From Minisyncoccota bacterium (GTDB taxonomy: Bacteria; Patescibacteriota; Minisyncoccia; Phycocordibacterales; DSPV01), in NCBI GenBank assembly GCA_041662545.1, contig JBAZSH010000004.1:1803-65802 (forward strand): a DNA stretch of 64,000 nt. Reading direction: 5' to 3'. Positions 4,537-27,454 of this stretch are shown here, one piece after another. The translations under genes were made by a program, and so were the position numbers. Under the pieces are notes generated by a model. It saw nothing but the letters and a program-made list of their open reading frames with translations. It did not search any database and had not been told where the DNA came from. The first letter of the stretch is position 1; the number at the start of each line of letters is the position of its first letter.

Positions 4537-5562
4537 ATGGCAAAAAAAATAAAGGTGGCGATTAATGGTTTTGGTCGGATTGGTCGAGCATTTTTTAAGA
4601 TAGCGGAAAAACGGCCAGAGTTAGAAGTGGTGGCGGTCAATGACTTAGGCGACATTGAAAACTTCGTTTATCTTCTGCGTCACGACACAGTTTATAAAAC
4701 CGAAGGTCTTGAAGTAAAAGCCAAATCGGACAAATCAGCTTTGGTTGTTAATGACCGCGAAATTTTATACTTCAGCGAAAAAGACCCCATAAATTTGCCA
4801 TGGAAAAAATTAGGCATTGATGTGGTGGTGGAAGCCACCGGCTTGTTTACCAGTTTTGAAAAAGCCAAAGTTCATCTAACTGCTGGCGCTAAAAAAGTTG
4901 TCATTTCGGCACCAGCCAAAGACATGCCGAAAGATGACAGCGAAGCCACAGTGCTACTCGGCATTAATGAAGAAAAATTAGCTAAATGTAAAATTTCTTC
5001 AAATGCTTCCTGCACCACCAATGCCGCCAGTCCGGTTATTGCCATTTTGCACGAAGCGCTGGGTATTGAAAAAGCCCTGCTCAACACCGTCCACGCTTAT
5101 ACTGCCAGCCAAGCAATTGTTGATGGCCCAAATAAAAAAGATTTCCGCGAAGGCCGAGCAGCAGCGCAAAATATCGTGCCGTCTTCAACTGGCGCCGCCA
5201 TCGCCGTAACCAAAGCTTTTCCTCAACTTACTGGTTTGTTTGATGGTATTTCGCTCCGCGTGCCAGTGGTAACTGGTTCCATTGCCGACATCACTTTTAT
5301 TTCCAAAAAACAAACTTCCACTGAGGAGGTAAATAAAATTTTGCGAAAGGCAGCTAAAGAAAAAAGGTGGCAGGGGATTTTTGCTGTTAATGAAGACGAG
5401 CCCGTTTCTTCCGACATTGTCGGCGACCAGCACGCTTCCATCGCCGATTTGAAAATGACTCGCGTCGTTGGTGGTAATTTGGTAAAAGTACTTGCCTGGT
5501 ATGACAACGAAATGGGCTACGCTTATACCTTAGTGGAACATGTTATAAAAATCAGCCTATGA
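4537..5562 (+). CDS. gap: glyceraldehyde-3-phosphate dehydrogenase
   Basis: INGFGRIGR is an NAD-binding motif and ASCTTNAASPVI is the catalytic Cys region. Confidence 0.9.
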   Translation: MAKKIKVAINGFGRIGRAFFKIAEKRPELEVVAVNDLGDIENFVYLLRHDTVYKTEGLEVKAKSDKSALVVNDREILYFSEKDPINLPWKKLGIDVVVEATGLFTSFEKAKVHLTAGAKKVVISAPAKDMPKDDSEATVLLGINEEKLAKCKISSNASCTTNAASPVIAILHEALGIEKALLNTVHAYTASQAIVDGPNKKDFREGRAAAQNIVPSSTGAAIAVTKAFPQLTGLFDGISLRVPVVTGSIADITFISKKQTSTEEVNKILRKAAKEKRWQGIFAVNEDEPVSSDIVGDQHASIADLKMTRVVGGNLVKVLAWYDNEMGYAYTLVEHVIKISL

Positions 5563-6044
5563 GAATTTTAATCGCCTCAGATCATGCCGGTTTTGAATTG
5601 AAAAATACTCTTTTCAATTTTTTGAAAGAGAAAAATTTTGAGGTGGTGGATTGCGGGCCGGATAAATTGGACAAGGAAGATGACTATCCTGATTTTGTCG
5701 CGCCAGTGGCGAAAGAAATTTCCACCGACGAAACGGGAAAAACTTTCGGCATTGTCATCGGCGGTTCTGGCCAAGGTGAAGCTATGTGTGCCAACCGTTT
5801 TCCGCGCGTCCGCGCGGTGGTTTTCTATGGGAATCCGGAGAGGTCAGACCTCTCTTCAGATTTGAGGTCTGACCTCATTAAACTCACGCGTCAGCACAAT
5901 AATGCCAATGTTCTAGCGATTGGCGCGAGGTTTGTATCCAAAGAAGAAGCGAAAAAGGCCGTGCTACTTTGGCTAGAAACACCTTTTGGCGGCGAGACAC
6001 GCCATCTCCGTCGGATTGAAAAAATTGATAAATCAGCACTATGA
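5559..6044 (+). CDS. rpiB: ribose-5-phosphate isomerase B (RpiB/LacAB family). It carries an in-frame REP-like insertion encoding ERSDLSSDLRSDL.
   Basis: MRILIASDHAGFELK...GIVIGGSGQGEAMCANR is RpiB-like. It overlaps the gap stop codon. Confidence 0.75.
   Translation: MRILIASDHAGFELKNTLFNFLKEKNFEVVDCGPDKLDKEDDYPDFVAPVAKEISTDETGKTFGIVIGGSGQGEAMCANRFPRVRAVVFYGNPERSDLSSDLRSDLIKLTRQHNNANVLAIGARFVSKEEAKKAVLLWLETPFGGETRHLRRIEKIDKSAL
5841..5875. repeat. in-frame REP-like inverted doublet in rpiB
   Basis: AGGTCAGACCT-ctcttcagatttg-AGGTCTGACCT. Confidence 0.85.
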
Positions 6045-6667
6045 TTGAAATTGTACCGGCAATTTTGCCAAAAAATTTTGAGGACTTTGAAGATTTGGAC
6101 AACAAATTGTCGCGACTTGAAAACCAAGTGGAATTAGCGCAAATTGATATTTGTAATCCAAAGATTTTTGAAAAAACTGGATTGCCCCATTGGCAAAATT
6201 TTGGTTTAGAAGTTGACTTAATGTTTAAAGAAGCGGAAAGAGAAGTTGGTTGGCTCATTGGTCTAAGAACTATCAGATTCATTATCCACCCAAACCTAAG
6301 CCGAATAGAAAAAGTAAAAGAGATGCTGGAAGACTTAAAAGGAGTAGTTTACTTCGGTATCGCTTTGGATTGGCAAAATTCTCTTAAAGATCTAGAACCT
6401 TTTATTGGACTAATTGACACCATACAAGTAATGGGCATAAAAAAAATCGGTTTTCAGGGCGAACCGTTCGAAGAATCAACTATTGACAAAGTGATGACAT
6501 TAAGAAAAAAATACCCCGAACTTGCGATTAGTGTTGATGGGGGAGTAAATTTGGAAAACGCACCACAACTAATTAAAGCTGGCGCAACTCGTTTAGTTAT
6601 TGGCTCAGCGATTTTTGGAAGCGGTGATTTGAAAGCAGTAATAGAAAAATTTAAAAAATTGGGATGA
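6041..6667 (+). CDS. rpe: ribulose-phosphate 3-epimerase-like TIM-barrel protein
   Basis: ISVDGGVNLENAPQLIKAGATRLVIGSAIF resembles the RPE C-terminal motif. It sits between rpiB and tkt, in pentose-phosphate context. Confidence 0.55.
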   Translation: MIEIVPAILPKNFEDFEDLDNKLSRLENQVELAQIDICNPKIFEKTGLPHWQNFGLEVDLMFKEAEREVGWLIGLRTIRFIIHPNLSRIEKVKEMLEDLKGVVYFGIALDWQNSLKDLEPFIGLIDTIQVMGIKKIGFQGEPFEESTIDKVMTLRKKYPELAISVDGGVNLENAPQLIKAGATRLVIGSAIFGSGDLKAVIEKFKKLG

Positions 6668-7536
6668 GTATCAGTCAAGAAAAAATTAAACAATTGGAAC
6701 GAAAGGCAAAGGAGATTCGCCGAACGGTGATTGAAGCACTGATGAATGCTGGTTCTGGACATACCGCCGGTCCGTTGGGTATGGCGGATATTTTTGCTTA
6801 TCTTTTTTTTCACGCCTTAAATCACGACCCAAAAAAACCAAACTGGCCCGAGCGCGATCGATTGATTGTTTCCAACGGCCATATTTGTCCGGTGCTTTAC
6901 GCGGCAATGGCTAACACCGGCTATTTTCCGGTAAAGGATTTAATCAACGGCTTGCGAAAATTCGGCTCACCATTTCAAGGCCATCCGCATCGCGATTTTT
7001 TACCAGCATTGGAAACCAGTTCTGGCCCACTCGGTGAAGGATTATCACAGGCGGCAGGCATGGCACTAGCAGAGAGAGCAGATTTCGGAATTCAAGGTCG
7101 AACCTTGGATCTGAAAAAAGGTTCGACCTTTATGTCCAAATTCTTCTTTTGTATTCTCTCCGACGCAGAATTACAAGAAGGTAATATCTGGGAAGCAGTG
7201 ATGCTGGCGGCAAAAGAAAAACTTGGCAATTTAATCGCTATTGTTGACCACAACAAAATTCAAATCGATGGTTGGACCGAAGAAATTATGCCCTTGGAAC
7301 CATTACGAGAAAAGTGGGAGGCCTTCGGCTGGCACACGGCAGAAATTAATGGCCACGATTTTCAAGAATTAGATACGGCAATTTCGGCAGCAAAAATTTT
7401 CCACACCAAACCATCGGTTATTATCGCCCACACCATTGCCGGCAAGGGTGTCAAAGAATTTGAAAATAAACCCGAATGGCACGGCCGCGCACCAAGCAAA
7501 GAGGAAGGGGAGAGGGCATTAAAAGAACTTCAATAG
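6664..7536 (+). CDS. tktA: transketolase N-terminal (TPP-binding) subunit of a split transketolase. It carries an in-frame REP-like insertion encoding QGRTLDLKKGSTF.
   Basis: It has GHTAGPLGMADIF and a TPP-binding fold. The length is 290 aa, and a separate C-terminal half lies at 8165. Confidence 0.8.
   Translation: MSISQEKIKQLERKAKEIRRTVIEALMNAGSGHTAGPLGMADIFAYLFFHALNHDPKKPNWPERDRLIVSNGHICPVLYAAMANTGYFPVKDLINGLRKFGSPFQGHPHRDFLPALETSSGPLGEGLSQAAGMALAERADFGIQGRTLDLKKGSTFMSKFFFCILSDAELQEGNIWEAVMLAAKEKLGNLIAIVDHNKIQIDGWTEEIMPLEPLREKWEAFGWHTAEINGHDFQELDTAISAAKIFHTKPSVIIAHTIAGKGVKEFENKPEWHGRAPSKEEGERALKELQ
7094..7131. repeat. in-frame REP-like inverted doublet in the transketolase N-terminal gene
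   Basis: AAGGTCGAACCTT-ggatctgaaaa-AAGGTTCGACCTT. Confidence 0.85.
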
Positions 7537-7537
7537 T

Positions 7538-7852
7538 ATGGAAATAACCTATCTTTACAAAGATATTCAAAAATTTTTTGATTTTCTTGACAGGGCCACA
7601 GCTTTAAAAACAGTTCGTCTTGTTCAACTGCTTTCAGTGAGAGAATACCATCTAACTATGCCGTATAGTAAAAAGATCGGGAAAAATCTTTATGAGCTTC
7701 GTGTGGTTAATACTCAAAATGTTAGGGTTTTCTATACTTTTCATCAAGAAAAAATTGTCCTTCTTCATGCGGTGTATAAGAAAACTCAAAAACTTAAAAA
7801 GAGAACTTTGGAAATAGTGGGACAGAGACTCCGAAACTTGCAATTAAGATAA
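7538..7852 (+). CDS. HigB-like toxin (Gp49/RelE-ParE superfamily)
   Basis: LGKNLYELRVVNTQNVRVFYTFHQEKIVLLHAVYKKTQKLKKRTLE matches the Gp49/HigB consensus. An XRE antitoxin gene lies immediately downstream. Confidence 0.65.
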   Translation: MEITYLYKDIQKFFDFLDRATALKTVRLVQLLSVREYHLTMPYSKKIGKNLYELRVVNTQNVRVFYTFHQEKIVLLHAVYKKTQKLKKRTLEIVGQRLRNLQLR

Positions 7853-7875
7853 CATATATGTTATCATAACCTTAT

Positions 7876-8163
7876 ATGAAAAAGACAAAAATAAAATTAA
7901 TACCGTTTAGCACTATTACACACCAACTTTTAAAAGACCCGGAGTTTAGAAAGGTGTATGAGGAGTCGGCATTTGAGTTTGAGATAATCAAAGCGATTAT
8001 TCGTATTCGGGCGCAGAAAAAATTTACCCAACGAGAACTCGCCAAAAATATCGGGGTCGCTCAATCGTCGCTGGCGCGGTTTGAATCCGGCAGAATTAAT
8101 CCTACTCTTTCATTCCTAAAAAAAGTGACAAGGGGATTGGGATTACGATTGATGGTGAAATAG
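7876..8163 (+). CDS. HigA-like antitoxin, an XRE-family HTH transcriptional regulator
   Basis: FTQRELAKNIGVAQSSLARFESGRINPTLSFLKKVTRGLGLRL is an HTH_XRE signature. Confidence 0.65.
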   Translation: MKKTKIKLIPFSTITHQLLKDPEFRKVYEESAFEFEIIKAIIRIRAQKKFTQRELAKNIGVAQSSLARFESGRINPTLSFLKKVTRGLGLRLMVK

Positions 8164-8164
8164 A

Positions 8165-9181
8165 ATGTTTGAATCAAAATCAAAACTAAAATCTACGCGC
8201 GCTGGGTTTGGTGAAGGATTAGTACTGGCTGGGGAAAAAGACGAGCGGGTGGTAGCGCTGACGGCGAATTTGAAAGAGTCGGTTTGTATGAGCGCCTTCG
8301 CCGAAAAATTTCCCGAGCGGTTTTTTGATGTCGGCGTGGCAGAACAAAATTTAGTTGGGGTAGCCAGCGGTTTAGCGGCAATGGATAAAATTCCATTCAT
8401 CGGTTCATTCGCGATTTTTTCACCAGGTAGAAATTGGGAGCAAATCCGCACAACTATTTGCTACAACAATCAGCCGGTAAAAATTGTTGGCTCGCACAGC
8501 GGACTTTCCGCTTCGCTGGACGGCGGCAGCCACCAAATGCTGGAAGACATCGCCTTGACGCGAGTTTTACCAAATATGATTGTCCTCTCGCCCTGCGATG
8601 CCATTGAAGCGAAAAAAATGGTGGTGGCTGCCGCCGAAATTGATAAACCGGTCTACATCCGCCTCTCGCGAGCCGAAACACCAATTATTACCAGCGAAGA
8701 GGCGCCGTTTGAAATTGGGGAGGCAGAAATCATATTTCAGAAAAAAAGGTCAGACCTTTCTGAAAAAAGGTTAAACCTTAAATCTGAAGAAAGGTTTAAC
8801 CTTGAGGAATCCGAAATCGGAATCATTGCCACCGGCACAATGGTTTATAGAGCATTGCTGGCAGCAAAAGAATTAAAAGAAACCGGCATAGGTGTTTCGG
8901 TAATAAATTTATCAACCATCAAACCGCTTGATGAAAAAGCCATCATAAAATTAGCGGGAGAAACGGGCGCGATTGTAACGGTAGAAGAACATCAAATTGC
9001 CGGTGGTATGGGTAGCGCGGTTGCCGAACTTTTAGCAGAAAAATTACCAACACCAATTGAATTCATTGGTGTCCGTGACCAATTTGGCCAAACGGGCAAG
9101 TATGAAGAATTGATAAATCTTTACGGCTTAAATATTTTGCAAATCAAACAAGCTGTCCGACGAGTGTTAAAAAGGAAATAA
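8165..9181 (+). CDS. tktB: transketolase C-terminal (pyrimidine-binding) subunit. It carries an in-frame REP-like insertion encoding KRSDLSEKRLNLKSEERFNLEE.
   Basis: It has the Transket_pyr and C-terminal domains (FDVGVAEQNLVGVASGLA). The length is 338 aa. Confidence 0.8.
   Translation: MFESKSKLKSTRAGFGEGLVLAGEKDERVVALTANLKESVCMSAFAEKFPERFFDVGVAEQNLVGVASGLAAMDKIPFIGSFAIFSPGRNWEQIRTTICYNNQPVKIVGSHSGLSASLDGGSHQMLEDIALTRVLPNMIVLSPCDAIEAKKMVVAAAEIDKPVYIRLSRAETPIITSEEAPFEIGEAEIIFQKKRSDLSEKRLNLKSEERFNLEESEIGIIATGTMVYRALLAAKELKETGIGVSVINLSTIKPLDEKAIIKLAGETGAIVTVEEHQIAGGMGSAVAELLAEKLPTPIEFIGVRDQFGQTGKYEELINLYGLNILQIKQAVRRVLKRK
8756..8813. repeat. in-frame REP-like triplet in the transketolase C-terminal gene
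   Basis: AAGGTCAGACCTT ... AAGGTTAAACCTT ... AAGGTTTAACCTT. Confidence 0.85.
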
Positions 9182-9194
9182 TTTTGTCTATATA

Positions 9195-9938
9195 TTATTC
9201 GTTAAATACATCAAGAAACTGGGTATCATGAATTTTTTTAACTAGTTTATATGTTTTACTTATTTTTGTTATAGCTTTGATTATGGCATCAACATCTTCT
9301 GAAACAGCCACTATCGCTTCCTCACACCTTTTGTTATCTGCTTCGGAATTTGCCATTTTACGACCTTCGGCCTTAACAGCAGAAGCAAGTTTAAGTAATT
9401 CACCTGTAAAAGCTGTGGAACCGCTCATATCTAGTTCAGTACTGAAACCGGTCTCTGGATCTTTAATTGCGTTTAGGATTGTTGATAGACCTAATGATTT
9501 TTGAGATTTTAATTCATAACTAATGCCGTTTTTAATTGTTGCTATTACAGCAGCGCGATCTCCTCGCATATATCCTTCAATTACTGATGTATTTCCCATT
9601 AAACCGGCTAATTTTTGCTGAATTTCTGTTGACAAATCATTGACTTGATCTTTTACTTCACCAATTAAGTCATAAAAAATTCTCTTTTCTTCATTAAACT
9701 TTCTGCCCCATTCTCTAATTTTTTCTAACTTTTCTTTATCTCCACCAGTTAATTTCTCTAATTCTTTCCATTGTTCCAACATCTGCTTTTTAAGTTTTTG
9801 TAGATGGGCCATATCAGTCACTTTTTTAATCTGTTCTGCTGTGTCTCTAAAATGACGAATGGCTGTTTCAAAAGCAATTTTCTTGGCTTCATCTGTCTCG
9901 CCAAAATCCTTTACAAGTTCAACAAAAATCGCGGTCAA
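9195..9938 (-). CDS. hypothetical protein of 247 aa, AT-rich
   Basis: It is a long ORF with no recognisable motif. Confidence 0.4.
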   Translation of the reverse strand: MTAIFVELVKDFGETDEAKKIAFETAIRHFRDTAEQIKKVTDMAHLQKLKKQMLEQWKELEKLTGGDKEKLEKIREWGRKFNEEKRIFYDLIGEVKDQVNDLSTEIQQKLAGLMGNTSVIEGYMRGDRAAVIATIKNGISYELKSQKSLGLSTILNAIKDPETGFSTELDMSGSTAFTGELLKLASAVKAEGRKMANSEADNKRCEEAIVAVSEDVDAIIKAITKISKTYKLVKKIHDTQFLDVFNE

Positions 9939-10094
9939 GAGTATCTCTAACCTCTTCTGTGGCTTCTTTTTTTTGGGGGGGCTTATAGCTTTCAGGTTTC
10001 ATATTTTCAAGTATACCACTCTTAATTTATAGCGCAAACACATCGGAGAGGTCAGGCGCTTGCATAAAAAAATAGGGCTTGTTAAAATGATTTT

Positions 10095-10725
10095 ATGATT
10101 AGGTACTATCAAAAAAAATGGCTTTACGCTCATTGAACTTCTGGTGGTAATTTCTATTATCTCGCTTTTGTCCAGTGTAGTTTTATCTTCTCTCTCTTCC
10201 GCCCGAGCAAAAGCGAGAGATGCGAAAAGATTATTTGAAATTAAACAAATACAAACTGCGCTACAATTATATGCAAGTAATAATGACGGTAATTATCCTT
10301 CTACAGGTTCACTTCACAATGTATATATGGATCCAGGTTGCGCACCACATAATTCTGGTGGAGATGTTGTTGGTACACAACAAAACTGGATTCCTGGATT
10401 AGTGCCAACTTATATATCTATTTTACCCAAAGACCCAATTGGTGTCTCTCAAGTTCCAGGCCAAACAGGCTTCAATGCATGTTACATGTATTCAAGTGAC
10501 GGCACCGGCTATCTCTTGAGCGCGTATGGCACAGTTGAAGGAAGTTCAAATGGTGGAAAGATGGATTCAAATTTTGGTTATCGAGAAATGTTTTATAATA
10601 GCAACGGTCAAGATCAGCAGTGTTATAACACAATCAACTATTCCGGGTTCATTCTTATTAGAAGAAAATCTTTTACACTAACAAACTTAACACCAAATGA
10701 TATGCATGGATGTTATACTCTTTGA
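10095..10725 (+). CDS. type IV pilin / pseudopilin-like protein. The prepilin leader MIRYYQK- at 10095 is out of frame with the body because of an A8 run.
   Basis: In frame with the 10144 ORF, the upstream sequence encodes ...NGFTLIELLVVISIISLL, a canonical prepilin cleavage/methylation motif. The ATG at 10095 reads MIRYYQKK in the -1 frame relative to the body. Removing one A from the run at 10111-10118 fuses them. Confidence 0.6.
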
Positions 10726-10782
10726 TAATTGGTATTCCTCTTCTATTGCATCAACAAATTATTGTTTATGTAATCCACCATA

Positions 10783-11787
10783 CTAACCACTAACTTTTTT
10801 TAGACCATAATCAGACGGCGCTTTGGCGAGTAATTCTTCCAGCGCCGGGCGGGTGAGCAATCCTTGATGCGCGCCGACGAATTGGATAACCGAACGGGCA
10901 TTGATGGGCGCCCAAAGCATTGCCTCACGCGGGGTTTTTCCTAAAATTAAAGCCGAAACGAAAGTAGCGGCATAGGCATCGCCAGCGCCGGTCCTTTCCA
11001 CCGGCGGTTTTGAATTAGGATAAGTCGGCATAAAAACAGCGCCTTCGCTATTGTGAATATAAGCGCCGTTTGCGCCGTTTGTAACAATGGCATTTTTCGC
11101 TCCCAAATTATGAAACTGCCGGACGGACTCCGCTCCATATTCATTAAGATTAAGTAATTTTCTAGCTTCTTCTCTATTACAAGCAAAAACATCAGAACGG
11201 CGAATAAACGGCAATAATTTTTCCAAGCCCAAAGAAAATTGAAAAGTGCCGGGCTGAAAAGCTAATCGGACATCGGGATTGGCTTCCAAATATTTTAAAA
11301 TTTCTTCTTGATATTTTTCCGAATCGGCCCCAATGGAACTTAAATAAATCCATTTTGGTTTTCCAAAAACTGGTAGGGCACGCTCGTAGGATTCGTGTCT
11401 AACCAAAATCGTCCGCTCGTCCTCATACCACAAAACATAATTAAGATTGGTCGGCGTATTTTTGTGGACAAATGCATAATCAATAGAAATCTTTTCTCTT
11501 TGAAGTGTCGCTAAACAATCTTTGCCATTTTTATCATCACCAAGATTAGTAACAACAGCGACAGAAAGTCCGAGCCGAGCCGCCGCAACGGCGGCATTAC
11601 TAGCGTTGCCAGTCGCGTAAATAATGTTGGCGGATTTATAGGGAATTTTTTGACCAAACGCCAAACACAACTCGCAACCTTCGCGATTCAAATTACAGTG
11701 AACCGAAGCATTTTCCAGACGAATAAAAGCGTCTATCGCGATATCGCCAATTGCTAAAAAGTCCACTGGTTTTTTATTGAAAAACAT
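10783..11787 (-). CDS. PfkB-family carbohydrate kinase (ribokinase-like)
   Basis: It has an N-terminal GG motif and the TGAGDAYAATFV anion-hole motif. Confidence 0.75.
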   Translation of the reverse strand: MFFNKKPVDFLAIGDIAIDAFIRLENASVHCNLNREGCELCLAFGQKIPYKSANIIYATGNASNAAVAAARLGLSVAVVTNLGDDKNGKDCLATLQREKISIDYAFVHKNTPTNLNYVLWYEDERTILVRHESYERALPVFGKPKWIYLSSIGADSEKYQEEILKYLEANPDVRLAFQPGTFQFSLGLEKLLPFIRRSDVFACNREEARKLLNLNEYGAESVRQFHNLGAKNAIVTNGANGAYIHNSEGAVFMPTYPNSKPPVERTGAGDAYAATFVSALILGKTPREAMLWAPINARSVIQFVGAHQGLLTRPALEELLAKAPSDYGLKKVSG

Positions 11788-11790
11788 TTT

Positions 11791-12000
11791 CTAAATTCTC
11801 ATAAACAAAATCACCGAAGCAATGAAAAAAATAATGGCGGCGGCGATTAAAACATAATTGGCAGTGGACTCGTTGGTAATGCCAAACCAGCGCATAACCA
11901 AACCAACTATACCTCGACTACCCGTTTGCCACCGTTGTGGTCGTTGTGGCGTAAAACGAGTGTTGTTTTCATTTTCTCCATAAAATTCTACATCTGACAT
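11791..12000 (-). CDS. small hypothetical membrane protein
   Basis: It is 69 aa with a C-terminal TM helix and is tightly packed between its neighbours. Confidence 0.3.
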   Translation of the reverse strand: MSDVEFYGENENNTRFTPQRPQRWQTGSRGIVGLVMRWFGITNESTANYVLIAAAIIFFIASVILFMRI

Positions 12001-12009
12001 ATTTTAAAA

Positions 12010-12981
12010 TTAATTAGTAATTTCATTCAACGGCTTTTGACCACCAAAAAAAGCTATTAGATTTTCTGCCGCTTTTTGTGCCATATCACTTCTGGTTTCC
12101 GCCGTCGCCGAAGCAATGTGTGGCGTTAAAACGACATTGGGCAAGTCCTTAAGACCAGCCGCCAAAACCGGCTCATTTTCAAAAACATCCAAAGCCGCTC
12201 CTTTAATAATACCTCTTTTCAAAGCGTCCACCAGCGCGACTTCGTCCACCACCGGCCCGCGGGAAGTATTGACAAGATAAGCGGTTTTTTTCATTAAGGC
12301 CAACCGTTCAGCATTGATTAAATGTTTGGTTTCTGGCAAAAGTGGCACATGTAAGCTGATCACATCAGCTTGTTGTAAAACCTCTTCAACACTCTTAAAT
12401 TCGGCACTAATCTCTTCTTCTAATTTTTCGTTGTGAACCACATCGTGATAAATAATTTTCATACCAAAACCCAAGGCCAGTTTTCTCGCCACTTCCGCGC
12501 CAATTCTGCCGGCGCCTAAAATACCCAAGGTTTTTCCTTGTAAATCGATACCCCAGAAAAGCATCGGGTCCCAACCGTCATATTTGCCGGCGCGAACAAA
12601 ATTATCGCCTTCCACAATTCGACAAGTCAAGGCCAGCAGCAAAGCCAGCGCGTGCTCGGCAACACTTTCGGTGGAAGCGCCGGGTGTATTGGTAATCACG
12701 ATGCCACGATTTTTGGCTTCAACAATATCAATATTATTAAAACCAACAGCGTAATTAGCGAAGATTTTTGTCGTCGGTGAGGCATTAAAAATTTCAGCGT
12801 CAATTTGATCGGTCAGCAAGCAAAGCACACCATCGTAGTTACCATCACCAAGAATTTTCACTAGTTCGGCTTTTGGCAATAGTTCACTTTTGTCGCGCAA
12901 TTCAACATTGTGCCCTTTGTCCTTGAGCATTTGAACACCAACTTCCGGAATTTTGTGAGTTATAAATATTTTTGCCATCAA
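12010..12981 (-). CDS. D-isomer-specific 2-hydroxyacid dehydrogenase (glyoxylate/hydroxypyruvate reductase-like)
   Basis: It has the NAD-binding motif GILGAGRIGAEVA and a catalytic R/E/H arrangement. The length is 323 aa. Confidence 0.7.
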   Translation of the reverse strand: MMAKIFITHKIPEVGVQMLKDKGHNVELRDKSELLPKAELVKILGDGNYDGVLCLLTDQIDAEIFNASPTTKIFANYAVGFNNIDIVEAKNRGIVITNTPGASTESVAEHALALLLALTCRIVEGDNFVRAGKYDGWDPMLFWGIDLQGKTLGILGAGRIGAEVARKLALGFGMKIIYHDVVHNEKLEEEISAEFKSVEEVLQQADVISLHVPLLPETKHLINAERLALMKKTAYLVNTSRGPVVDEVALVDALKRGIIKGAALDVFENEPVLAAGLKDLPNVVLTPHIASATAETRSDMAQKAAENLIAFFGGQKPLNEITN

Positions 12982-13844
12982 ACTTTATTAAAAATTTTTA
13001 ATTTTTCCTCTACAACCTTTTGTACCGCCTTCATTGGTTCTTTCAGATATTTATAGGGCGTGGTTTCTTCCAAATTTTCCTGAAGCGATTTTTGCAGCGC
13101 TTGGCGATAGGCAACGCGCAATTCGGTATTGATGTGAACAATCGCTACCCCTACATCAATCGCTTTCTGAAATTCTGCTGGTGAATTACCCGAACCACCG
13201 TGAAGAACCAAAGGAATTTTCGCGGTTTCGCTGATTTCTTTTATTCGCCCAATATTCAAAGATGGGTCTTTTCCACCACGAAGCATACCGTGAAAATTAC
13301 CTACAGCTGGTGCTAATAAATCTACACCGGTTTCTTCAACAAATTTTTGTGCTTCCTCTGGCTTGGTTAAATTTTCTGCCGAAAGTTGAACGCCAGCAGG
13401 TAGAACATCGTGAATTTTTGACGACTTGCCGATAAAACCGATTTCGCCTTCGGTGATAATTTCCGGATTTTTTGCCCGAGCATAGTCAACACATTGTTTG
13501 GTAATTTTAATATTTTCTGCCAAAGGTAATTCACTACCATCAAACATTGCCGCGTCAAAACCAGCATCCACAACTTCTTTGTAGCGCTCAAAACTAGAAG
13601 TATGGTCAGCGTTTATAAAAATCGGTAAATTATACTGATCACGCAAACTTTTCACTAGGGCCACCGCTTGTCGCACGCCAACGAAATCCCGCTCGCCATC
13701 GGACAAACCAATAATCACCGGCAATTCCAAACTTTTGGCCGCATTGAAAATTCCCCAAAGCGCCTCTAAGTTGGAAATATTAAAATGACCAATGGCAACT
13801 TTTTTCGCCCGCGCCTCCGCCAAACATTCCCGCAAAGTTTTCAT
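12978..13844 (-). CDS. fba: class II fructose-bisphosphate aldolase
   Basis: It has the motifs LHGGSG and NADHTSS and the class II FBA fold. Confidence 0.8.
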   Translation of the reverse strand: MKTLRECLAEARAKKVAIGHFNISNLEALWGIFNAAKSLELPVIIGLSDGERDFVGVRQAVALVKSLRDQYNLPIFINADHTSSFERYKEVVDAGFDAAMFDGSELPLAENIKITKQCVDYARAKNPEIITEGEIGFIGKSSKIHDVLPAGVQLSAENLTKPEEAQKFVEETGVDLLAPAVGNFHGMLRGGKDPSLNIGRIKEISETAKIPLVLHGGSGNSPAEFQKAIDVGVAIVHINTELRVAYRQALQKSLQENLEETTPYKYLKEPMKAVQKVVEEKLKIFNKV

Positions 13845-13899: not shown

Positions 13900-16800
13900 A
13901 TGGACAAATCGAAAACGGCCGAACGAGAGGAAAAAATTCTTAAGTTTTGGCGCGACAATAAAATTTTTGAAAAATCATTGGAAAAACCCGCGCCAAATGG
14001 GGAATTTACTTTTTATGATGGACCGCCTTTCGCTAGTGGTACACCTCATTTTGGTCATCTTCTGCCAACTTCTATCAAAGACGCGGTGCCGCGCTTTTGG
14101 ACAATGCGCGGTTTTCGAGTGGCACGCCGTTGGGGTTGGGATTGCCACGGTTTACCGGTAGAAAATTTAGTAGAAAAAGAATTGGGTCTGAAATCAAAAA
14201 AAGAAATAGAAAATTATGGGGTGGAAAAATTCAATGCGGTCGCGCGAGAGAGTGTCTTGCGCTATGCCGATATTTGGCGCGAGCAAATTCCGCGCTTCGG
14301 CCGGTTTGTGGATATGGATAACGATTACCGAACGATGGACGCTAATTACACCGAGAGTGTCTGGTGGGCCTTCAAAACACTTCACGGAAAAAATCTAATT
14401 TATGAGGGTTTCAAGCCAATGCATCTTTGCCCCCATTGCGGTACCACGCTTTCAAATTTTGAAGTGGCGCAGGGTTATAAAGATATCGCGGATATTTCAG
14501 TATATGCGAAGTTTAAAACTGATGATAAAACTTTCTTGCTGGCTTGGACCACTACACCGTGGACTTTACCGGGTAATGTCGCATTGGCGGTGGGAAAAGA
14601 TATTGATTATGTAAGGGTAGGAATAATGAATAAGGAATTAGGAATTAGGGAAGAATATATTTTGGCAAAAGCGCGGTTAGTTGTTTTGAAACAGGAATAT
14701 GAAATTTTAGAAGAATTCAAAGGAGAAAAATTGGTAGGTAAATCATATGAGCCAATTTTTGATTATTATAAAGGTCAGACCTTGGGGAATCGAGACCGGG
14801 GTTGGAAAATTTACGCCGCAGATTTTGTAACCACCGAAGACGGCACCGGCATTGTCCACATCGCGCCGGCTTTCGGCGAGGCCGATATGAAATTGGGCGA
14901 AAAAGAAAAATTGCCTTTTGTTCAGCATGTTGGTGTTGATGGAAAATTTAAGAGCGAAGTTTCTGATTTTGCTGGCCAAGATGTCAAACCAAAAGATGAC
15001 CCGACTCGTGCCGATGTCGCTGTGTTAAAATTTCTAGCCGCTAAAAATCTTTTATTCGCCAAAGAAAAAATTACTCACTCCTATCCGCATTGCTGGCGCT
15101 GCGAAACACCGCTTTTGAATTACGCCGCTTCTTCGTGGTTCGTAAAAGTGACGGCATTGAAAAATAAATTACTTGCCGAAAATGAAAAAATTCACTGGGT
15201 GCCGGAAACAATAGGGAAGTATCGTTTCGGTAATTGGCTGGCCGAAGCGCGAGATTGGGCAATTTCCCGCTCACGCTTCTGGGGCGCGCCATTGCCCGTT
15301 TGGCGTTGCGACAAATGCGGAAAATTGGAAATCATCGGCTCAATTGAAGATATAAAAAAACACCTGAAACCGCGCAATCGCTATATTGTAATGCGCCACG
15401 GCGAGTCGGAAAATAATGTAAAGGGAATTTTAAACACTGATTTAAAAAATAATGTTTTTCATCTGACTGAAAATGGAAAAGCTCAAACTAGAGAAAGTGC
15501 TGAAAAATTAGCGGTGGAAAAAATTGATTTGATTTTTGCTTCACCTTTTGCCCGAACAATCGATACCGCCGAGCTTGTCCGAGAAAAACTCGGTTTACCG
15601 AAAGAAAATTTGGTGATAGATGAGCGGCTAAAAGAAATTTCTGGCACTGAATTTGAGGGTTCGCCAGAAAGTGGTTATGGTAAATTTTACAAAAATTTTG
15701 AGGAAAGGTTTACAAAACGACCAAATGGCGGTGAAAATTATTTGGAGATAAAGAAGCGACTGGGAGATTTTCTTCAAGAAATTGACACTAAACACACTGG
15801 AAAAAACATTTTAATTGTTACTCACGGAGCGCCGGCTTGGCTCCTAGAACATACCGCCCTCGGTCTAACACCAAAACAAATGGCGCAGGTCTGGAAAAGA
15901 GAATCACTTTTACCAAACAGCCAATATCGAGAATTCTCCTTTCTTTCTTTGCCCCTTAACGAAAATCATGAATTAGATTTACATCGACCATTTATTGACT
16001 CCATCGAATTTGATTGCGCTTGTTCCGAAAAAATGCGACGAGTGCCGGAAGTTTTTGATTGCTGGTTTGAAAGCGGCTCAATGCCTTTTGCCGAATGGCA
16101 CTATCCCTTCGACTCCGCTCAGGGCAAGCCCTTTGAAAAAATTTTTAATCCTAAGCCCGGCTGGTTTCAAAAAGCAAAAAGATTTCCAGCCGACTTTATT
16201 GCTGAAGGATTGGATCAAACCCGCGGCTGGTTTTATTCCATGCTGGTGCTTGGTGTCGCTTTGTTCGGCAAATCACCTTACAAAAATGTAATCGTGAATG
16301 GTTTAGTTCTAGCCGAAGACGGCCGGAAAATGTCAAAAAGCTTAAAAAATTATCCGGACCTTATGCCGACCGTTGAAAAATATGGCGCCGACGCCATCCG
16401 TCTATATCTTTTGTCATCGCCAGCAGTGAGGGCTGAAGATGCTCGATTTTCCGAAAAGGGTGTGGATGAAGTGGCAAAAAAAGTCCTCGGCCGACTTGAT
16501 AATGTTTTGGCTTTTTATTTGCTTTACGCGGATAAAAATTTAACCAATGACCGTCAACCAACAACCAGCAACATTTTGGACCAATGGATACTGGCGCGAT
16601 TAAACCAACTTATCAGTGAGGTAACAAAGGCGATGGAAAATTATGAACTAGACAAGGCGGCGCGGCCGATCGGCGACTTCGTGGATGATTTGTCCACTTG
16701 GTATTTGCGCCGCTCCCGCGAGCGTATTAAAAACGGCGATGGGGACGGCCGCGCCGCGCTAGCAACTCTGCGTTTCGTATTGTTGGAACTTTCAAAAATA

Positions 16801-17379
16801 ATTGCGCCCTTTACGCCGTTTTTCTCGGAATATTTGTATAAAACAGTTGGCGGCGAAAAAGAAAGTGTGCATTTGGATAATTGGCCCGCCTGCAAGGCAG
16901 ACGGGCGAGGCGTTGCGGGCGGGCCCGAGACCAACTTACTTGAGGAAATGAAAGAGGTGCGACGGATAGTTTCATTGGCTTTGGAAGCACGAGCAAAAGC
17001 GAATATAAAAGTCCGACAACCGCTCGCTTCGCTTCGCATTAAATTTGGCATCAATTCACATATGGTTAATTTAATAAAAGATGAAGTGAATGTGAAGGAA
17101 ATTACTTTTAGCAACGAACTGAAAAATGAAGTGGAATTAGATACCACTATTACACCTGAGTTAAAAAGGGAAGGGAACTATCGGGAAGCGGTGCGACAAA
17201 TTCAAGAATTGCGAAAAGAAAAAGGCCTACGGCCCGGCCAATTGGCAACTCTCGCCACTTCAGCCCAAATTGCCTCCACTGGTTTGCTTCAAGAATTTGA
17301 GGATGATTTAAAACACTCCGCCTCGCTGGAAAGAATAAATCACGGTGTTTTAGCCGAGGGCGATTTTGAGTTGCGTTAA
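13900..17379 (+). CDS. ileS: isoleucyl-tRNA synthetase, with an internal ~200-aa histidine-phosphatase (PGM-like) domain insertion and one REP singlet
   Basis: It has PPFASGTPHFGHLL (a HIGH-type motif), the editing domain, a zinc knuckle WRCDKCG and KMSKSLKN. The segment RNRYIVMRHGESENN...IVTHGAPAWL is inserted before HRPFIDSIEF. Confidence 0.85.
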   Translation: MDKSKTAEREEKILKFWRDNKIFEKSLEKPAPNGEFTFYDGPPFASGTPHFGHLLPTSIKDAVPRFWTMRGFRVARRWGWDCHGLPVENLVEKELGLKSKKEIENYGVEKFNAVARESVLRYADIWREQIPRFGRFVDMDNDYRTMDANYTESVWWAFKTLHGKNLIYEGFKPMHLCPHCGTTLSNFEVAQGYKDIADISVYAKFKTDDKTFLLAWTTTPWTLPGNVALAVGKDIDYVRVGIMNKELGIREEYILAKARLVVLKQEYEILEEFKGEKLVGKSYEPIFDYYKGQTLGNRDRGWKIYAADFVTTEDGTGIVHIAPAFGEADMKLGEKEKLPFVQHVGVDGKFKSEVSDFAGQDVKPKDDPTRADVAVLKFLAAKNLLFAKEKITHSYPHCWRCETPLLNYAASSWFVKVTALKNKLLAENEKIHWVPETIGKYRFGNWLAEARDWAISRSRFWGAPLPVWRCDKCGKLEIIGSIEDIKKHLKPRNRYIVMRHGESENNVKGILNTDLKNNVFHLTENGKAQTRESAEKLAVEKIDLIFASPFARTIDTAELVREKLGLPKENLVIDERLKEISGTEFEGSPESGYGKFYKNFEERFTKRPNGGENYLEIKKRLGDFLQEIDTKHTGKNILIVTHGAPAWLLEHTALGLTPKQMAQVWKRESLLPNSQYREFSFLSLPLNENHELDLHRPFIDSIEFDCACSEKMRRVPEVFDCWFESGSMPFAEWHYPFDSAQGKPFEKIFNPKPGWFQKAKRFPADFIAEGLDQTRGWFYSMLVLGVALFGKSPYKNVIVNGLVLAEDGRKMSKSLKNYPDLMPTVEKYGADAIRLYLLSSPAVRAEDARFSEKGVDEVAKKVLGRLDNVLAFYLLYADKNLTNDRQPTTSNILDQWILARLNQLISEVTKAMENYELDKAARPIGDFVDDLSTWYLRRSRERIKNGDGDGRAALATLRFVLLELSKIIAPFTPFFSEYLYKTVGGEKESVHLDNWPACKADGRGVAGGPETNLLEEMKEVRRIVSLALEARAKANIKVRQPLASLRIKFGINSHMVNLIKDEVNVKEITFSNELKNEVELDTTITPELKREGNYREAVRQIQELRKEKGLRPGQLATLATSAQIASTGLLQEFEDDLKHSASLERINHGVLAEGDFELR
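14771..14783. repeat. REP-like singlet AAGGTCAGACCTT in ileS
   Basis: It is an exact 13-mer shared with the other copies. Confidence 0.5.
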
Positions 17380-26354: not shown

Positions 26355-26756
26355 ATGAAGTTTTTGAAAATAAAAGGGACAACAATTTTACTTTTCTTAT
26401 TTGCTATTGTATTAATGCCAGTTTTTTCTTTTGCGGTTGATGATGTAACTATCTCCGCCACAATCGACAACCCCCTGTCAGCAGGTTCGCTATTCTGTTT
26501 TCTGAAAGATATTTTGGATGTGTTTTTGACGGTTGGAATAATTATCGCTGTTTTGTTTATGGTCTATGCCGGCTTTTTGTTCGTGACGGCGCGAGGGGCC
26601 GAAGCTCAACTCACCACTGCCAAAAAAGCATTTCTCGGTGCCGTCATCGGCACCGCTATTATTATGGGAGTGTGGGTGATTGCCCAAGCGATTGTCGGCA
26701 CTATCAATGCTATTCGCGATCCAGGTGCGGCCATCAGCATATCAACTTGTCCGTAA
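26355..26756 (+). CDS. VirB2/TrbC-like pilin-family small membrane protein (paralog 1)
   Basis: It has a signal peptide and two TM helices (IIAVLFMVYAGFLFVT...AFLGAVIGTAIIMGVWVIAQ). It is homologous to the N-terminus of the 21471 protein. Confidence 0.55.
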   Translation: MKFLKIKGTTILLFLFAIVLMPVFSFAVDDVTISATIDNPLSAGSLFCFLKDILDVFLTVGIIIAVLFMVYAGFLFVTARGAEAQLTTAKKAFLGAVIGTAIIMGVWVIAQAIVGTINAIRDPGAAISISTCP

Positions 26757-26781
26757 TATAGAAAAGAATTAAAATATAATT

Positions 26782-26964
26782 ATGAAAAAAATCAGAAAAG
26801 AAAAAAAGACCGCCAGAGACCATTTTGTAATTTTGATTAGAGAAATTCGTCTACTGCGAGAAATATTGAGGAATAACACCAAAATGATTCGTTCAGTAAT
26901 AATCCCTTTGCTTGCCAAACGCAACAAAGAAATTGATTTTCTAAAAACCCAAGTCGGTGTTTAA
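26782..26964 (+). CDS. small basic hypothetical protein
   Basis: It is a 60-aa ORF between pilin paralogs. Coding status is uncertain. Confidence 0.2.
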   Translation: MKKIRKEKKTARDHFVILIREIRLLREILRNNTKMIRSVIIPLLAKRNKEIDFLKTQVGV

Positions 26965-26973
26965 TTAAAAATA

Positions 26974-27345: not shown

Positions 27346-27454
27346 GTTTTCCACAGGTAGCTTGTTGTATGGTGTTTTATCTGGTAACCTTAAATGGTGT
27401 TAAAAACCAAAGGTCGTTGAAGGTTTTTTATTAATTTTACTAAAATTATAATAA

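What the first reader, a model, noticed from the sequence alone, without database searches (positions are those of the whole stretch)
15370..15960. Isoleucyl-tRNA synthetase with an internal histidine-phosphatase (PGM-like) domain
IleS is 1159 aa. About 197 aa (YIVMRHGESENN...ASPFARTIDTA...ILIVTHGAPAWL) are inserted between the zinc-knuckle WRCDKCG and the conserved HRPFID...DCWFESGS segment. The inserted stretch carries both the catalytic RHG His and the second His of branch-1 histidine phosphatases. The flanking IleS motifs are intact, so this looks like a functional fusion.

A phosphatase domain embedded in the catalytic core of an aaRS is unusual. It could hydrolyse a phosphorylated small molecule, a nucleotide or an aminoacyl-adenylate-related product, or it could be a recently nested mobile domain.
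Basis: partly seen in the sequence, partly recalled or inferred. Interest (0 to 1): 0.62.

Follow-up and report, generated by a model that had tools for sequence, protein, structure and literature searches.

The report
Phosphatase domain nested inside isoleucyl-tRNA synthetase
An essential translation enzyme (isoleucyl-tRNA synthetase) of an ultra-small "CPR" bacterium carries a complete, apparently active phosphatase domain inside one of its surface loops; the arrangement is conserved across a large part of this bacterial radiation, recurs at three different loops, and I found no description of it in the searchable literature.

Summary
ORF 13900-17379 (+) encodes an intact 1159-aa type-2 IleRS. 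A ~200-aa insert (aa 490-690) contains a branch-1 histidine-phosphatase domain (Pfam PF00300, aa 496-663, E=2.6e-33). It sits in the loop of the CP3 zinc knuckle, not in the Rossmann core proper.

It is not an assembly artefact. All 120 nearest homologues and about 105 of the 150 best 50%-identity cluster representatives carry a His_Phos domain. The catalytic residues (R499, H500, N506, R552, E579, H642) are invariant or nearly so. AlphaFold models are confident (pLDDT 92 for the whole protein, 97 for the insert). The closest solved folds are small-metabolite phosphatases (GpgP, PspA, PhoE), not mutases.

- Other CPR lineages carry the same domain type at two other IleRS loops: site B in Peregrinibacteria and site C in Peribacteria. 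Some proteins have two copies.
- The same and other IleRS loops host NUDIX, GNAT, P-loop-kinase-like and α/β-hydrolase domains in other members.
- About 78 non-CPR IleRS2 loci have no nested His_Phos.

The substrate is unknown. I favour an independently acting phosphomonoesterase tethered to IleRS. A tRNA-end or aminoacylation-coupled role remains possible. I found no literature description.

The parts
13900..17379 (+). Complete ileS gene (1159 aa plus stop) encoding type-2 IleRS with a nested His_Phos domain
   Evidence: ORF. TIGR00392 885 bits against cut-off 621. Best PDB matches are IleRS2 8c8u and related entries. Foldseek TM 0.82-0.93 normalised by target to IleRS2, ScIleRS and TtIleRS. 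Identical protein P0001 is in NCBI and JGI.
13900..15366 (+). N-terminal IleRS part (aa 1-489): first half of the Rossmann/HUP fold with HIGH (HFGH, nt 14047-14058), CP1 editing domain (Thr-rich WTTTPWT, nt 14545-14565), CP2, and the CP2-3 linker RDWAISRSRFWG (nt 15250-15285)
   Evidence: Pfam tRNA-synt_1 stretch 12-506. Motif positions. Invariant columns in the 77-sequence alignment. The linker is equivalent to ScIleRS 453-465, part of the tRNA-CCA/reveromycin pocket.
15307..15321 (+). CxxC half of the CP3 zinc knuckle (C470, C473)
   Evidence: Both cysteines are 93% conserved in 120 homologues.
15367..15969 (+). Whole insert relative to insert-less IleRS2 (aa 490-690): short N-linker, His_Phos domain, and a structured C-linker of about 27 aa
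   Evidence: Alignment break against 8c8u. Insert-less relatives have 0-13 residues here. pLDDT 85-98 across the insert in the full-length model.
15385..15888 (+). Histidine phosphatase branch-1 domain (Pfam PF00300, aa 496-663)
   Evidence: E=2.6e-33. Insert-only AlphaFold model has pLDDT 96.9. Foldseek to GpgP 6s2q/4qih, PspA 4ij5, PhoE 1h2e and HFP 9mmh gives TM about 0.75, E 1e-12 to 1e-14.
15394..15402 (+). RHG motif: R499 and H500 (predicted phospho-acceptor nucleophile)
   Evidence: R499 and H500 are 100% conserved in 120 homologues, invariant in the 77-sequence alignment, and present at all three insertion sites.
15541..15555 (+). SPxxR motif: S548 and R552 (phosphate-pocket arginine)
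   Evidence: S548 and R552 are 100% conserved.
15634..15636 (+). E579, predicted general acid/base (equivalent to Glu83 of PhoE)
   Evidence: 100% in 120 homologues. 95-100% across sites A, B and C. Aligned to the conserved Glu of PspA and PhoE.
15823..15825 (+). H642, the second catalytic histidine (THG motif)
   Evidence: 100% conserved.
16012..16026 (+). CxC half of the CP3 zinc knuckle (C706, C708)
   Evidence: 92-93% conserved.
15970..17379 (+). C-terminal IleRS part (aa 691-1159): rest of CP3, second half of the Rossmann fold (WFESGS, DQTRGWFY), KMSKS (nt 16327-16341), anticodon-binding domain, and type-2 C-terminal domain (DUF5915)
   Evidence: Pfam Anticodon_1 894-1042 and DUF5915 1072-1138. 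Motifs.
16120..16179 (+). Loop aa 741-760 ('site B'): empty here, but it hosts a His_Phos, GNAT, P-loop-kinase-like or Ser_hydrolase domain in other CPR IleRS
   Evidence: This loop has the lower-confidence pLDDT of 79-86 in the model.
16531..16560 (+). Loop aa 878-887 ('site C'): empty here, but it hosts a His_Phos domain in Peribacteria-type IleRS
   Evidence: The pLDDT block is about 76.

Best explanation
The gene encodes one polypeptide with two catalytic activities. The host is a complete type-2 IleRS with its HIGH and KMSKS motifs, CP1 editing site, both zinc knuckles and anticodon-binding domains intact. It presumably acts as the cell's IleRS. A complete ~170-aa branch-1 histidine phosphatase of the small PhoE/PspA/GpgP type is nested in the loop of the CP3 zinc knuckle, held by a short N-linker and a conserved, structured C-linker of about 27 aa.

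Shown here: the fold, the intact and invariant catalytic set, the age of the insertion and its lineage-wide retention.

Inferred: the domain works as other family members do. His500 attacks a phosphomonoester to form a phospho-histidine intermediate, stabilised by R499, N506, R552 and H642. E579 protonates the leaving group and then activates water.

The same domain type is found at three different IleRS surface loops in different CPR lineages, sometimes in two copies. The same and other IleRS loops carry NUDIX, GNAT, kinase-like or hydrolase domains in other members. I therefore think the phosphatase acts chemically independently of aminoacylation, on a small phosphorylated metabolite or nucleotide. 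On this view IleRS serves as a permissive, constitutively expressed scaffold that gives co-expression and tethering in these gene-poor cells. The substrate is not identified.
For: Domain identity.

Catalytic residues: R499, H500, S548, R552, E579, E612, R620 and H642 are 100% conserved and G501 and N506 99% in 120 homologues. They are invariant or at least 90% conserved in a 77-sequence alignment reaching down to 38% identity. They are intact at sites A, B and C and in both copies of most double-domain proteins.

IleRS intact.

Not an artefact: 120/120 neighbours carry PF00300, and about 105 of the 150 best 50%-identity representatives do.

Confident integration: full-length model pLDDT 92 and pTM 0.87, with the insert and linkers at 85-98.

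Three insertion sites and double copies.

Lineage assignment: site A in Paceibacteria/Parcubacteria-type MAGs, site B in Peregrinibacteria, site C in Peribacteria.

Other nested enzymes in the same IleRS clade: NUDIX, GNAT, AAA_18/AAA_33, Ser_hydrolase and Y1_Tnp.

Small-molecule preference: the closest solved relatives by sequence and fold are all metabolite phosphatases, and the domain is not basic, with median pI about 7 and net charge 0.
Against: No enzymatic data and no substrate.

Independence of the two activities is inferred only from the variable insertion position and the diversity of nested domains. It was not tested.

The repeated choice of IleRS as host suggests some functional link with IleRS or tRNA(Ile). 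Other aaRS genes seen in this window and in fetched loci are of ordinary size or domain content (CysRS, GluRS, PheRS and ArgRS among them). ValRS, LeuRS and MetRS could not be surveyed.

Site A lies only about 30 residues after the CP2-3 linker that lines the tRNA CCA pocket. The conserved linkers and high pTM suggest a fixed orientation, which a mere passenger domain would not need.

Confidence: 0.5

Rival explanations
1. tRNA- or aminoacylation-coupled phosphatase. The nested domain acts in cis on what IleRS binds. It could remove a 3'-phosphate, a 2',3'-cyclic-phosphate-derived phosphate, or (after Nudix action) a pyrophosphate from the CCA end of tRNA(Ile) before charging. It could also hydrolyse a nucleotide by-product of the synthetase reaction.
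For: Site A is in CP3, directly after the CP2-3 linker that forms part of the tRNA-CCA/reveromycin pocket. A His_Phos domain has been fixed in IleRS at three separate loops. Some relatives combine His_Phos with an AAA_18/AAA_33 P-loop-kinase-like domain (P0185) or with NUDIX (P0214) in the same IleRS. From my own knowledge, that combination resembles kinase-plus-phosphatase RNA end-healing enzymes such as T4 Pnkp. From my own knowledge, toxSAS toxins block tRNAs by pyrophosphorylating the CCA end. The conserved linkers and pTM of 0.87 suggest a defined orientation.
Against: Three different attachment points and double copies argue against a precise geometric relation to one active site. The domain is not basic. 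All of the closest solved relatives act on small metabolites. I know of no branch-1 histidine phosphatase acting on RNA ends. The other nested domains (MutT-like NUDIX, GNAT, α/β hydrolase, Y1_Tnp) have no obvious common tRNA theme.
Confidence: 0.2
2. The domain is the organism's glycolytic cofactor-dependent phosphoglycerate mutase (3PG to 2PG), hidden inside ileS.
For: The best NCBIfam subfamily hit for the insert is archaeal short dPGM (NF038349, E=2.6e-23). In this window ileS lies next to a carbohydrate-metabolism cluster: GAPDH, RpiB, an Rpe-like gene, split transketolase, PfkB kinase, 2-hydroxyacid dehydrogenase and class II aldolase. No PGM gene was seen among the window ORFs I examined.
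Against: The score of 78-83 bits is far below the 225-bit equivalog cut-off, and all other dPGM models are missed by much more. The segment after the catalytic Glu reads E-I-S-G-T-E-F-E-G, like PhoE and unlike the dPGM ERHYG motif; the motif assignment is from my own knowledge, and the sequence is. The closest solved structures are phosphatases, with mutases lower. The sugar-gene synteny is not conserved in other genomes. Only 64 kb of the genome was visible, so absence of another PGM is not established.
Confidence: 0.08
3. Regulatory module. The domain senses or removes a phosphate signal, either by binding a phosphometabolite or by acting as a SixA/PGAM5-like protein phosphatase. This would tune IleRS activity and couple translation to metabolic state.
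For: Domain insertion into a loop next to the active-site region is a typical architecture for allosteric control. The predicted orientation is rigid. There is a weak match to SixA over the first ~70 residues.
Against: The SixA score of 26-30 bits is below its 74.5-bit cut-off. A full catalytic set is retained at three unrelated sites, which is hard to reconcile with one allosteric mechanism. No partner kinase is conserved nearby.
Confidence: 0.07
4. Artefact or relic: an assembly chimera, a frameshifted fusion of two genes, an intein-like selfish insert, or a decaying domain.
For: GC content is slightly lower in the insert (0.37-0.40) than in the flanks (0.41-0.47). The insert evolves faster than the core, with 38% against about 55% mean identity.
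Against: It is a single ORF. The same architecture occurs in hundreds of independent assemblies from NCBI, JGI, ENA and Logan. The catalytic residues are invariant. Pfam found no intein or Hint match and there are no flanking repeats. The fold is confident.
Confidence: 0.01

Closest known systems
Type-2 isoleucyl-tRNA synthetase (IleRS2; P. megaterium 8C8U/8C8V, T. thermophilus 1ILE, yeast 7D5C/8WND)
   Same: Same domain order, signature motifs, editing domain, CP3 zinc knuckle and type-2 C-terminal domains. TIGR00392 is above its cut-off. Foldseek TM is 0.82-0.93 normalised by target.
   Different: The solved enzymes have about 7 residues where this protein has a ~200-aa phosphatase insert. 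None of about 78 non-CPR IleRS2 loci sampled has a nested His_Phos.
Small stand-alone branch-1 histidine phosphatases: PhoE (1H2E/1EBB), PspA phosphoserine phosphatase (4IJ5), GpgP Rv2419c (4PZ9/4QIH), riboflavin-pathway HFP (9MMH), CobC
   Same: Same fold (TM about 0.75) and size class. Same catalytic residues: RHG, Asn, Arg, Glu and His.
   Different: Only 21-26% identity. No equivalog cut-off is reached: PspA 61-65 bits against 350, CobC 63-68 against 162.9. This domain is nested inside another enzyme rather than free-standing, and its substrate is unknown.
NCBIfam NF040702 'isoleucine--tRNA ligase, N-acetyltransferase domain-containing' (ileS_w_GNAT)
   Same: A database-level precedent for an IleRS family named for an additional catalytic domain in the same polypeptide.
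   Different: A different accessory domain (GNAT). The window protein and the CPR GNAT-bearing IleRS score only about 240-315 bits against a cut-off of 1999, so they are not members. I found no paper on either architecture.
Other bifunctional proteins containing a His_Phos domain: Rv2228c RNase H/acid phosphatase (PRK07238), PFK-2/FBPase-2
   Same: A branch-1 phosphatase fused to an unrelated enzyme. PRK07238 is the second-best NCBIfam match, and PFKFB structures appear among the PDB hits.
   Different: Those are end-to-end fusions with different partners. Here the domain is inserted within a loop of the partner, and the partner is an aminoacyl-tRNA synthetase.
Canonical nested domains of class Ia synthetases (CP1 editing domain; INS in ARD2 of IleRS2)
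   Same: Class Ia synthetases are built by nested insertions into connective peptides (bioRxiv 10.64898/2026.02.03.703510). The new insert uses the same kind of permissive loop.
   Different: CP1 and INS serve tRNA charging and editing and are near-universal. The His_Phos insert is lineage-restricted (CPR), comes from an unrelated metabolic enzyme superfamily, and is not mentioned in that survey of 96,219 sequences.

Membership tests
Isoleucyl-tRNA synthetase, type 2 | Curated equivalog model TIGR00392 above its cut-off | tested here: met
   885.2 bits against cut-off 621.4, in two stretches split by the insert.
Isoleucyl-tRNA synthetase, type 2 | Class I signature motifs HIGH and KMSKS | tested here: met
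   HFGH at aa 50-53 and KMSKS at aa 810-814. P49, H53, K810 and S812 are at least 90% conserved and K813 is invariant in the 77-sequence alignment.
Isoleucyl-tRNA synthetase, type 2 | CP1 editing domain with the Thr-rich motif and conserved His/Asp | tested here: met
   WTTTPWT at aa 216-222. T217-T219, P220, T222, H320 and D329 are invariant.
Isoleucyl-tRNA synthetase, type 2 | Type-2 C-terminal organisation (no treble-clef zinc-binding domain) and overall fold | tested here: met
   DUF5915 at the C-terminus. The best sequence and fold matches are IleRS2 and eukaryotic IleRS, with IleRS1 much weaker.
Isoleucyl-tRNA synthetase, type 2 | Aminoacylation of tRNA(Ile) | not testable with these tools
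   Requires biochemistry. Whether the genome has a second ileS could not be checked from 64 kb.
Histidine phosphatase superfamily, branch 1 (PF00300) | Pfam model above its gathering threshold | tested here: met
   115.8 bits against 21.7, E=2.6e-33, aa 496-663 covering profile positions 2-168 of 194.
Histidine phosphatase superfamily, branch 1 (PF00300) | RHG motif with nucleophilic His, plus a second Arg, a proton-donor Glu and a second His | tested here: met
   R499, H500, G501, R552, E579 and H642 are present and 99-100% conserved.
Histidine phosphatase superfamily, branch 1 (PF00300) | α/β fold of the superfamily | tested here: met
   The insert-only model has pLDDT 96.9. Foldseek TM is about 0.75 and E 1e-12 to 1e-14 to GpgP, PspA and PhoE.
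Histidine phosphatase superfamily, branch 1 (PF00300) | Phosphatase or mutase activity via a phospho-histidine intermediate | not testable with these tools
   Inferred from the conserved residues only.
Cofactor-dependent phosphoglycerate mutase (dPGM) | Equivalog or subfamily model above its cut-off | tested here: not met
   dPGM_arch 78-83 bits against 225. pgm_1 23 bits against 81.7. The other GpmA/GpmB models score 18-39 bits against cut-offs of 261-409.
PspA-type phosphoserine phosphatase / CobC α-ribazole phosphatase | Equivalog model above its cut-off | tested here: not met
   PspA 61-65 bits against 350. PRK13463 59-64 against 277. CobC TIGR03162 63-68 against 162.9.
Intein / mobile nested element | Hint/intein splicing motifs, a homing endonuclease, or flanking repeats | tested here: not met
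   No intein, Hint or endonuclease family appears among the Pfam hits for the protein. Only short chance repeats flank the insert. By contrast, a true intein was detected by the same scan in ORF 59869-63903.
NCBIfam NF040702 ileS_w_GNAT | Model above its cut-off | tested here: not met
   314.9 bits against 1999.

The most novel reading that the evidence does not exclude
In CPR bacteria IleRS has become a platform for in-cis accessory enzymes: histidine phosphatase, Nudix hydrolase, GNAT acetyltransferase, PNK-like P-loop kinase and esterase. Together these would protect or repair what IleRS handles. One version is healing of damaged or toxin-blocked tRNA(Ile) 3' ends, by removing phosphate or pyrophosphate. 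Another is detoxifying aminoacyl-adenylate-mimicking antibiotics at their target. On this reading the phosphatase in this window would be the commonest module of a previously unrecognised synthetase-embedded tRNA or translation quality-control system.
Probability: 0.12. Interest if true: 0.85.

Novelty: new variant of a known kind. Interest (0 to 1): 0.62.

Why it matters
Aminoacyl-tRNA synthetases are among the most conserved and best-studied enzymes. A second, apparently active catalytic domain from an unrelated superfamily, nested in the connective peptide and retained across a large part of the Candidate Phyla Radiation, is unexpected. It occurs at three separate loops, sometimes twice in one protein. 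It gives a concrete experimental question in organisms that are otherwise hard to study: what is the substrate, and is it coupled to charging?

There are also practical consequences. NCBI names the site-A proteins only 'class I tRNA ligase family protein', whereas insert-less relatives are named 'isoleucine--tRNA ligase'. Automated reconstructions may therefore miss IleRS and will certainly miss the hidden phosphatase. That matters for claims about missing metabolic steps in CPR genomes.

The same IleRS clade also hosts Nudix, GNAT, kinase-like and hydrolase domains. This suggests a more general way of packing accessory enzymes into essential proteins in minimal cells.

Tried and rejected
1. 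Sugar-metabolism synteny as a clue to function. The window has GAPDH, RpiB, Rpe, Tkt, PfkB and aldolase next to ileS. Four other genomes show unrelated housekeeping neighbours. Rejected as a functional signal.

2. A stand-alone His_Phos gene next to insert-less ileS. None was found in the one short contig available.

3. Flanking repeats or mobile-element scars. Only short chance matches.

4. Phylogeny of the His_Phos domains, to decide between one capture with relocation and several captures. The NJ tree at about 30-35% identity is unresolved. Sites B and C mostly cluster by site, and the PDB outgroups are no more distant than the sites are from each other. Left open.

5. Parsimony count of gains and losses on an IleRS core NJ tree (28 changes). 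I distrust it because the tree is deep and star-like. The uniform neighbourhoods indicate that the trait follows lineage.

6. Search for stand-alone relatives using a site-C domain as query. The word prefilter found nothing.

7. GTDB genome scan with the His_Phos alignment failed for lack of a conserved stretch. It was still useful as a negative control and for locating Peribacteria locus L032.

9. A basic surface as a sign of tRNA binding. Not seen.

10. A CYTH assignment for the 184-aa insert of P0267. No Pfam hit even at E=10.
Full report
**Observation.** The window contains one uninterrupted ORF, 13900..17379 on the + strand, encoding 1159 aa. Pfam places His_Phos_1 (PF00300) at aa 496-663 with E=2.6e-33. 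It splits the class I synthetase domain into two stretches and finds Anticodon_1 and DUF5915 downstream. NCBIfam scores the protein as IleS (TIGR00392, 885 bits against cut-off 621). Alignment to the nearest solved enzyme, P. megaterium IleRS2 (8c8u), stops at query 489 / chain 478 and resumes at query 691 / chain 485. About 200 residues therefore replace a loop of about 7 residues.

**Where the insert sits.** It lies between CDKCG (aa 470-474) and DCACS (aa 705-709), the two halves of a zinc knuckle. In the yeast enzyme, CP3 is residues 459-526. It follows the CP2-3 linker ARDWNVSRNRYWG, which lines the tRNA-CCA/reveromycin pocket (PMC7955072). The query's RDWAISRSRFWG is at aa 451-462. In PmIleRS2 the HUP core is residues 40-168 plus 513-632 (PMC10485003). 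The phosphatase is therefore nested in the peripheral CP3 zinc knuckle of the connective peptide, just before the second half of the Rossmann fold. It is not in the catalytic core proper.

**What the insert is.**
- By sequence, the closest solved proteins are the PspA phosphoserine phosphatase (4ij5, E=5e-12), PhoE (1ebb/1h2e) and a riboflavin-pathway histidine phosphatase (9mmh).
- An AlphaFold model of aa 486-695 has pLDDT 96.9.
- By Foldseek that model matches GpgP (6s2q, 4qih), PspA, PhoE, HFP, EhPSP and CobC at TM about 0.75. True mutases rank lower.
- No curated subfamily cut-off is reached: dPGM_arch 78-83 bits against 225, PspA 61-65 against 350, CobC 63-68 against 162.9.
- It is therefore a branch-1 histidine phosphatase of the small metabolite-phosphatase type, with unassigned specificity.
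- All catalytic residues are present: R499, H500, N506, R552, E579 and H642, plus E612 and R620.

**Is it real and is it functional?**
- The identical protein is in NCBI and JGI. All 120 best homologues (55-81% identity), from many independent assemblies of Paceibacterota, Parcubacteria, Magasanikbacteria and Taylorbacteria MAGs, carry PF00300 as well.
- In those 120, R499, H500, S548, R552, E579, E612, R620 and H642 are 100% conserved, and G501 and N506 are 99%.
- They remain invariant or at least 90% conserved in a 77-sequence alignment reaching down to 38% identity, alongside the IleRS motifs.
- The insert evolves faster than the core (38% against about 55% mean identity) but keeps its catalytic set. 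This is the pattern of a functional domain under its own constraints.
- The full-length model is confident: pLDDT 92, pTM 0.87, with the insert and both linkers at 85-98. Its IleRS part superposes on solved IleRS2 structures.
- There is no intein signature and there are no flanking repeats. An assembly chimera or frameshift is excluded by recurrence, although read depth itself could not be examined.

**Distribution.**
- An exhaustive search of 1.84 billion cluster representatives returned 150 best IleRS representatives. About 105 contain a His_Phos domain and about 45 do not. The insert-less ones have 0-13 residues at the site.
- The insert-less relative P0132 is surrounded by 120 of 120 insert-less neighbours from Kuenen-, Portnoy-, Komeili- and Falkowbacteria.
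- Presence or absence therefore follows lineage and is old. It is not in rapid flux. The 28 changes on my NJ tree mostly reflect a poorly resolved deep tree.
- Among 80 loci from a GTDB species scan, about 78 non-CPR IleRS2 loci (Clostridia, Chloroflexi and others) have no nested His_Phos. The Peribacteria locus does.

**Main new result: several insertion sites.** I mapped every His_Phos domain with a local HMM and projected the flanks onto the query.

| Site | Position in query | Where found |
|---|---|---|
| A | about aa 490/691 | This window; the majority of carriers |
| B | about aa 740/761, after WFESGS and before FPADF | P0165, P0177, P0244, P0259, P0265; the named ones are Ca. Peregrinibacteria |
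| C | about aa 877/887, between the catalytic body and the anticodon-binding domain | P0211, P0235, P0237, P0246, and Ca. Peribacteria locus L032 |

These assignments rest.
- Some proteins have two copies: A+C (P0168), B+C (P0212, P0221) and tandem A+A (P0149).
- Catalytic residues are intact at every site and in both copies of these doubles.
- In the window protein, sites B and C are ordinary surface loops with the lowest local pLDDT.

**Second new result: other nested enzymes.** The same IleRS clade also carries other nested domains:
- MutT-like NUDIX, at site A in P0258 and near aa 205-250 in P0214, P0220, P0238 and P0262.
- GNAT, in P0239, P0244 and P0259.
- An AAA_18/AAA_33 P-loop-kinase-like domain, at site B in P0185.
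- An α/β Ser_hydrolase, at site B in P0246.
- IS200-like Y1_Tnp domains inside CP1, in P0217 and P0251.

In most of these proteins a His_Phos domain is also present (exceptions: P0258, P0217, P0220 and P0262).

**Context.** In this window ileS is flanked by a carbohydrate-metabolism cluster and by mreB. Neighbourhoods in four other genomes are unrelated housekeeping genes. Only ArgRS-ileS-RecO recurs, and only within Paceibacteria. Synteny gives no clue to the substrate.

**Mechanism.**
- Shown: an intact IleRS2 with a nested, structurally complete histidine phosphatase that is conserved at its catalytic residues.
- Inferred: the phosphatase uses the family mechanism. H500 forms a phospho-enzyme and E579 acts as general acid/base.
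- I favour, at about 0.5, that it acts on a small phosphorylated metabolite or nucleotide, chemically independently of aminoacylation. IleRS would serve as a permissive, constitutively expressed scaffold.
- My reasons are as follows. The attachment point varies between three loops and copies can be doubled. Unrelated enzyme types use the same loops. The closest relatives are all metabolite phosphatases. The domain is not basic.
- The main rival, at about 0.2, is action in cis on tRNA(Ile) 3' ends or on synthetase by-products. Supporting it, IleRS is chosen as host repeatedly, site A follows the CCA-pocket linker, the linkers are conserved with an apparently fixed orientation, and a PNK-like kinase or Nudix domain co-occurs in some relatives.
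- A hidden glycolytic dPGM (about 0.08) and a regulatory module (about 0.07) are less likely. An artefact is effectively excluded.

**Comparison with what is known.** Full-text searches found no paper that describes an IleRS, or any aaRS, with a nested histidine phosphatase, or that places the Pfam names together. A 2026 survey of 96,219 IleRS sequences and their domain architectures mentions neither a phosphatase nor Patescibacteria. The nearest database precedent is NCBIfam NF040702, an IleRS with a GNAT domain. This protein does not belong to it (315 bits against 1999). The sequences themselves are public and carry precomputed Pfam hits. What is new is recognising the architecture, its extent and the multiple insertion sites, not the sequence data. 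I rate it a new variant of a known kind.

**Limits.**
- There is no biochemistry.
- Two fold libraries were unavailable.
- My last large protein search returned nothing.
- I could not survey ValRS, LeuRS or MetRS, or whole genomes for other PGMs or stand-alone phosphatases.
- I could not resolve whether sites A, B and C arose from one capture or several.

Noticed in passing
window 59869-63903 (-): A 1344-aa surface-type protein (Bact_surface_Ig-like, Peptidase_S74) is interrupted by an intein (Intein_splicing, aa 175-558). The intein's internal domain is a NYN nuclease-like domain (aa 302-446) rather than a classical homing endonuclease.
   Followed up: partly
Related proteins P0258, P0214, P0220, P0238, P0262, P0239, P0244, P0259, P0185, P0246 (not in the window): IleRS of the same clade carry other nested enzyme domains: MutT-like NUDIX, GNAT, an AAA_18/AAA_33 P-loop-kinase-like domain and an α/β Ser_hydrolase. 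Most of these proteins also contain a His_Phos domain.
   Followed up: partly
window 57306-58049 (-); related proteins P0217, P0251: The window has a stand-alone IS200-like Y1_Tnp gene. Y1_Tnp-like domains are found nested in-frame in the CP1 region of two related IleRS representatives.
   Followed up: no
Related protein P0267, aa 259-442: A 184-aa insert at about query aa 246-251 has no Pfam match even at E=10. It looked CYTH-like by eye, but this is unsupported.
   Followed up: partly
window 4537-13844: A compact carbohydrate-metabolism cluster lies upstream of ileS: GAPDH, RpiB, an Rpe-like gene, transketolase split into N-terminal (6664-7536) and C-terminal (8165-9181) genes with a gap of about 630 nt between them, a PfkB kinase, a 2-hydroxyacid dehydrogenase and a class II aldolase. 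The gap between the transketolase halves was not examined.
   Followed up: no
window 28347-30005 (+): A type IV secretion coupling-protein-like ATPase (TrwB/TraG/HerA-type hits), next to small membrane proteins at 26355-27808.
   Followed up: no
L084 13971-15083 and L002 4295-4969 (related loci): Stand-alone GNAT and CYTH genes lie a few kb from ileS in a Peregrinibacteria contig, and a CYTH gene lies near ileS in a Paceibacteria contig. GNAT is one of the enzyme types found nested in other IleRS. This may be coincidence.
   Followed up: no
Annotation of P0001 and its homologues: NCBI names the site-A fused proteins 'class I tRNA ligase family protein', whereas insert-less relatives are named 'isoleucine--tRNA ligase'. 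The insert appears to degrade automated naming.
   Followed up: no
Related protein P0257 (1087 aa): It has two His_Phos domains. The first copy has E612Q and R620Q substitutions, so it may be a decaying duplicate.
   Followed up: no
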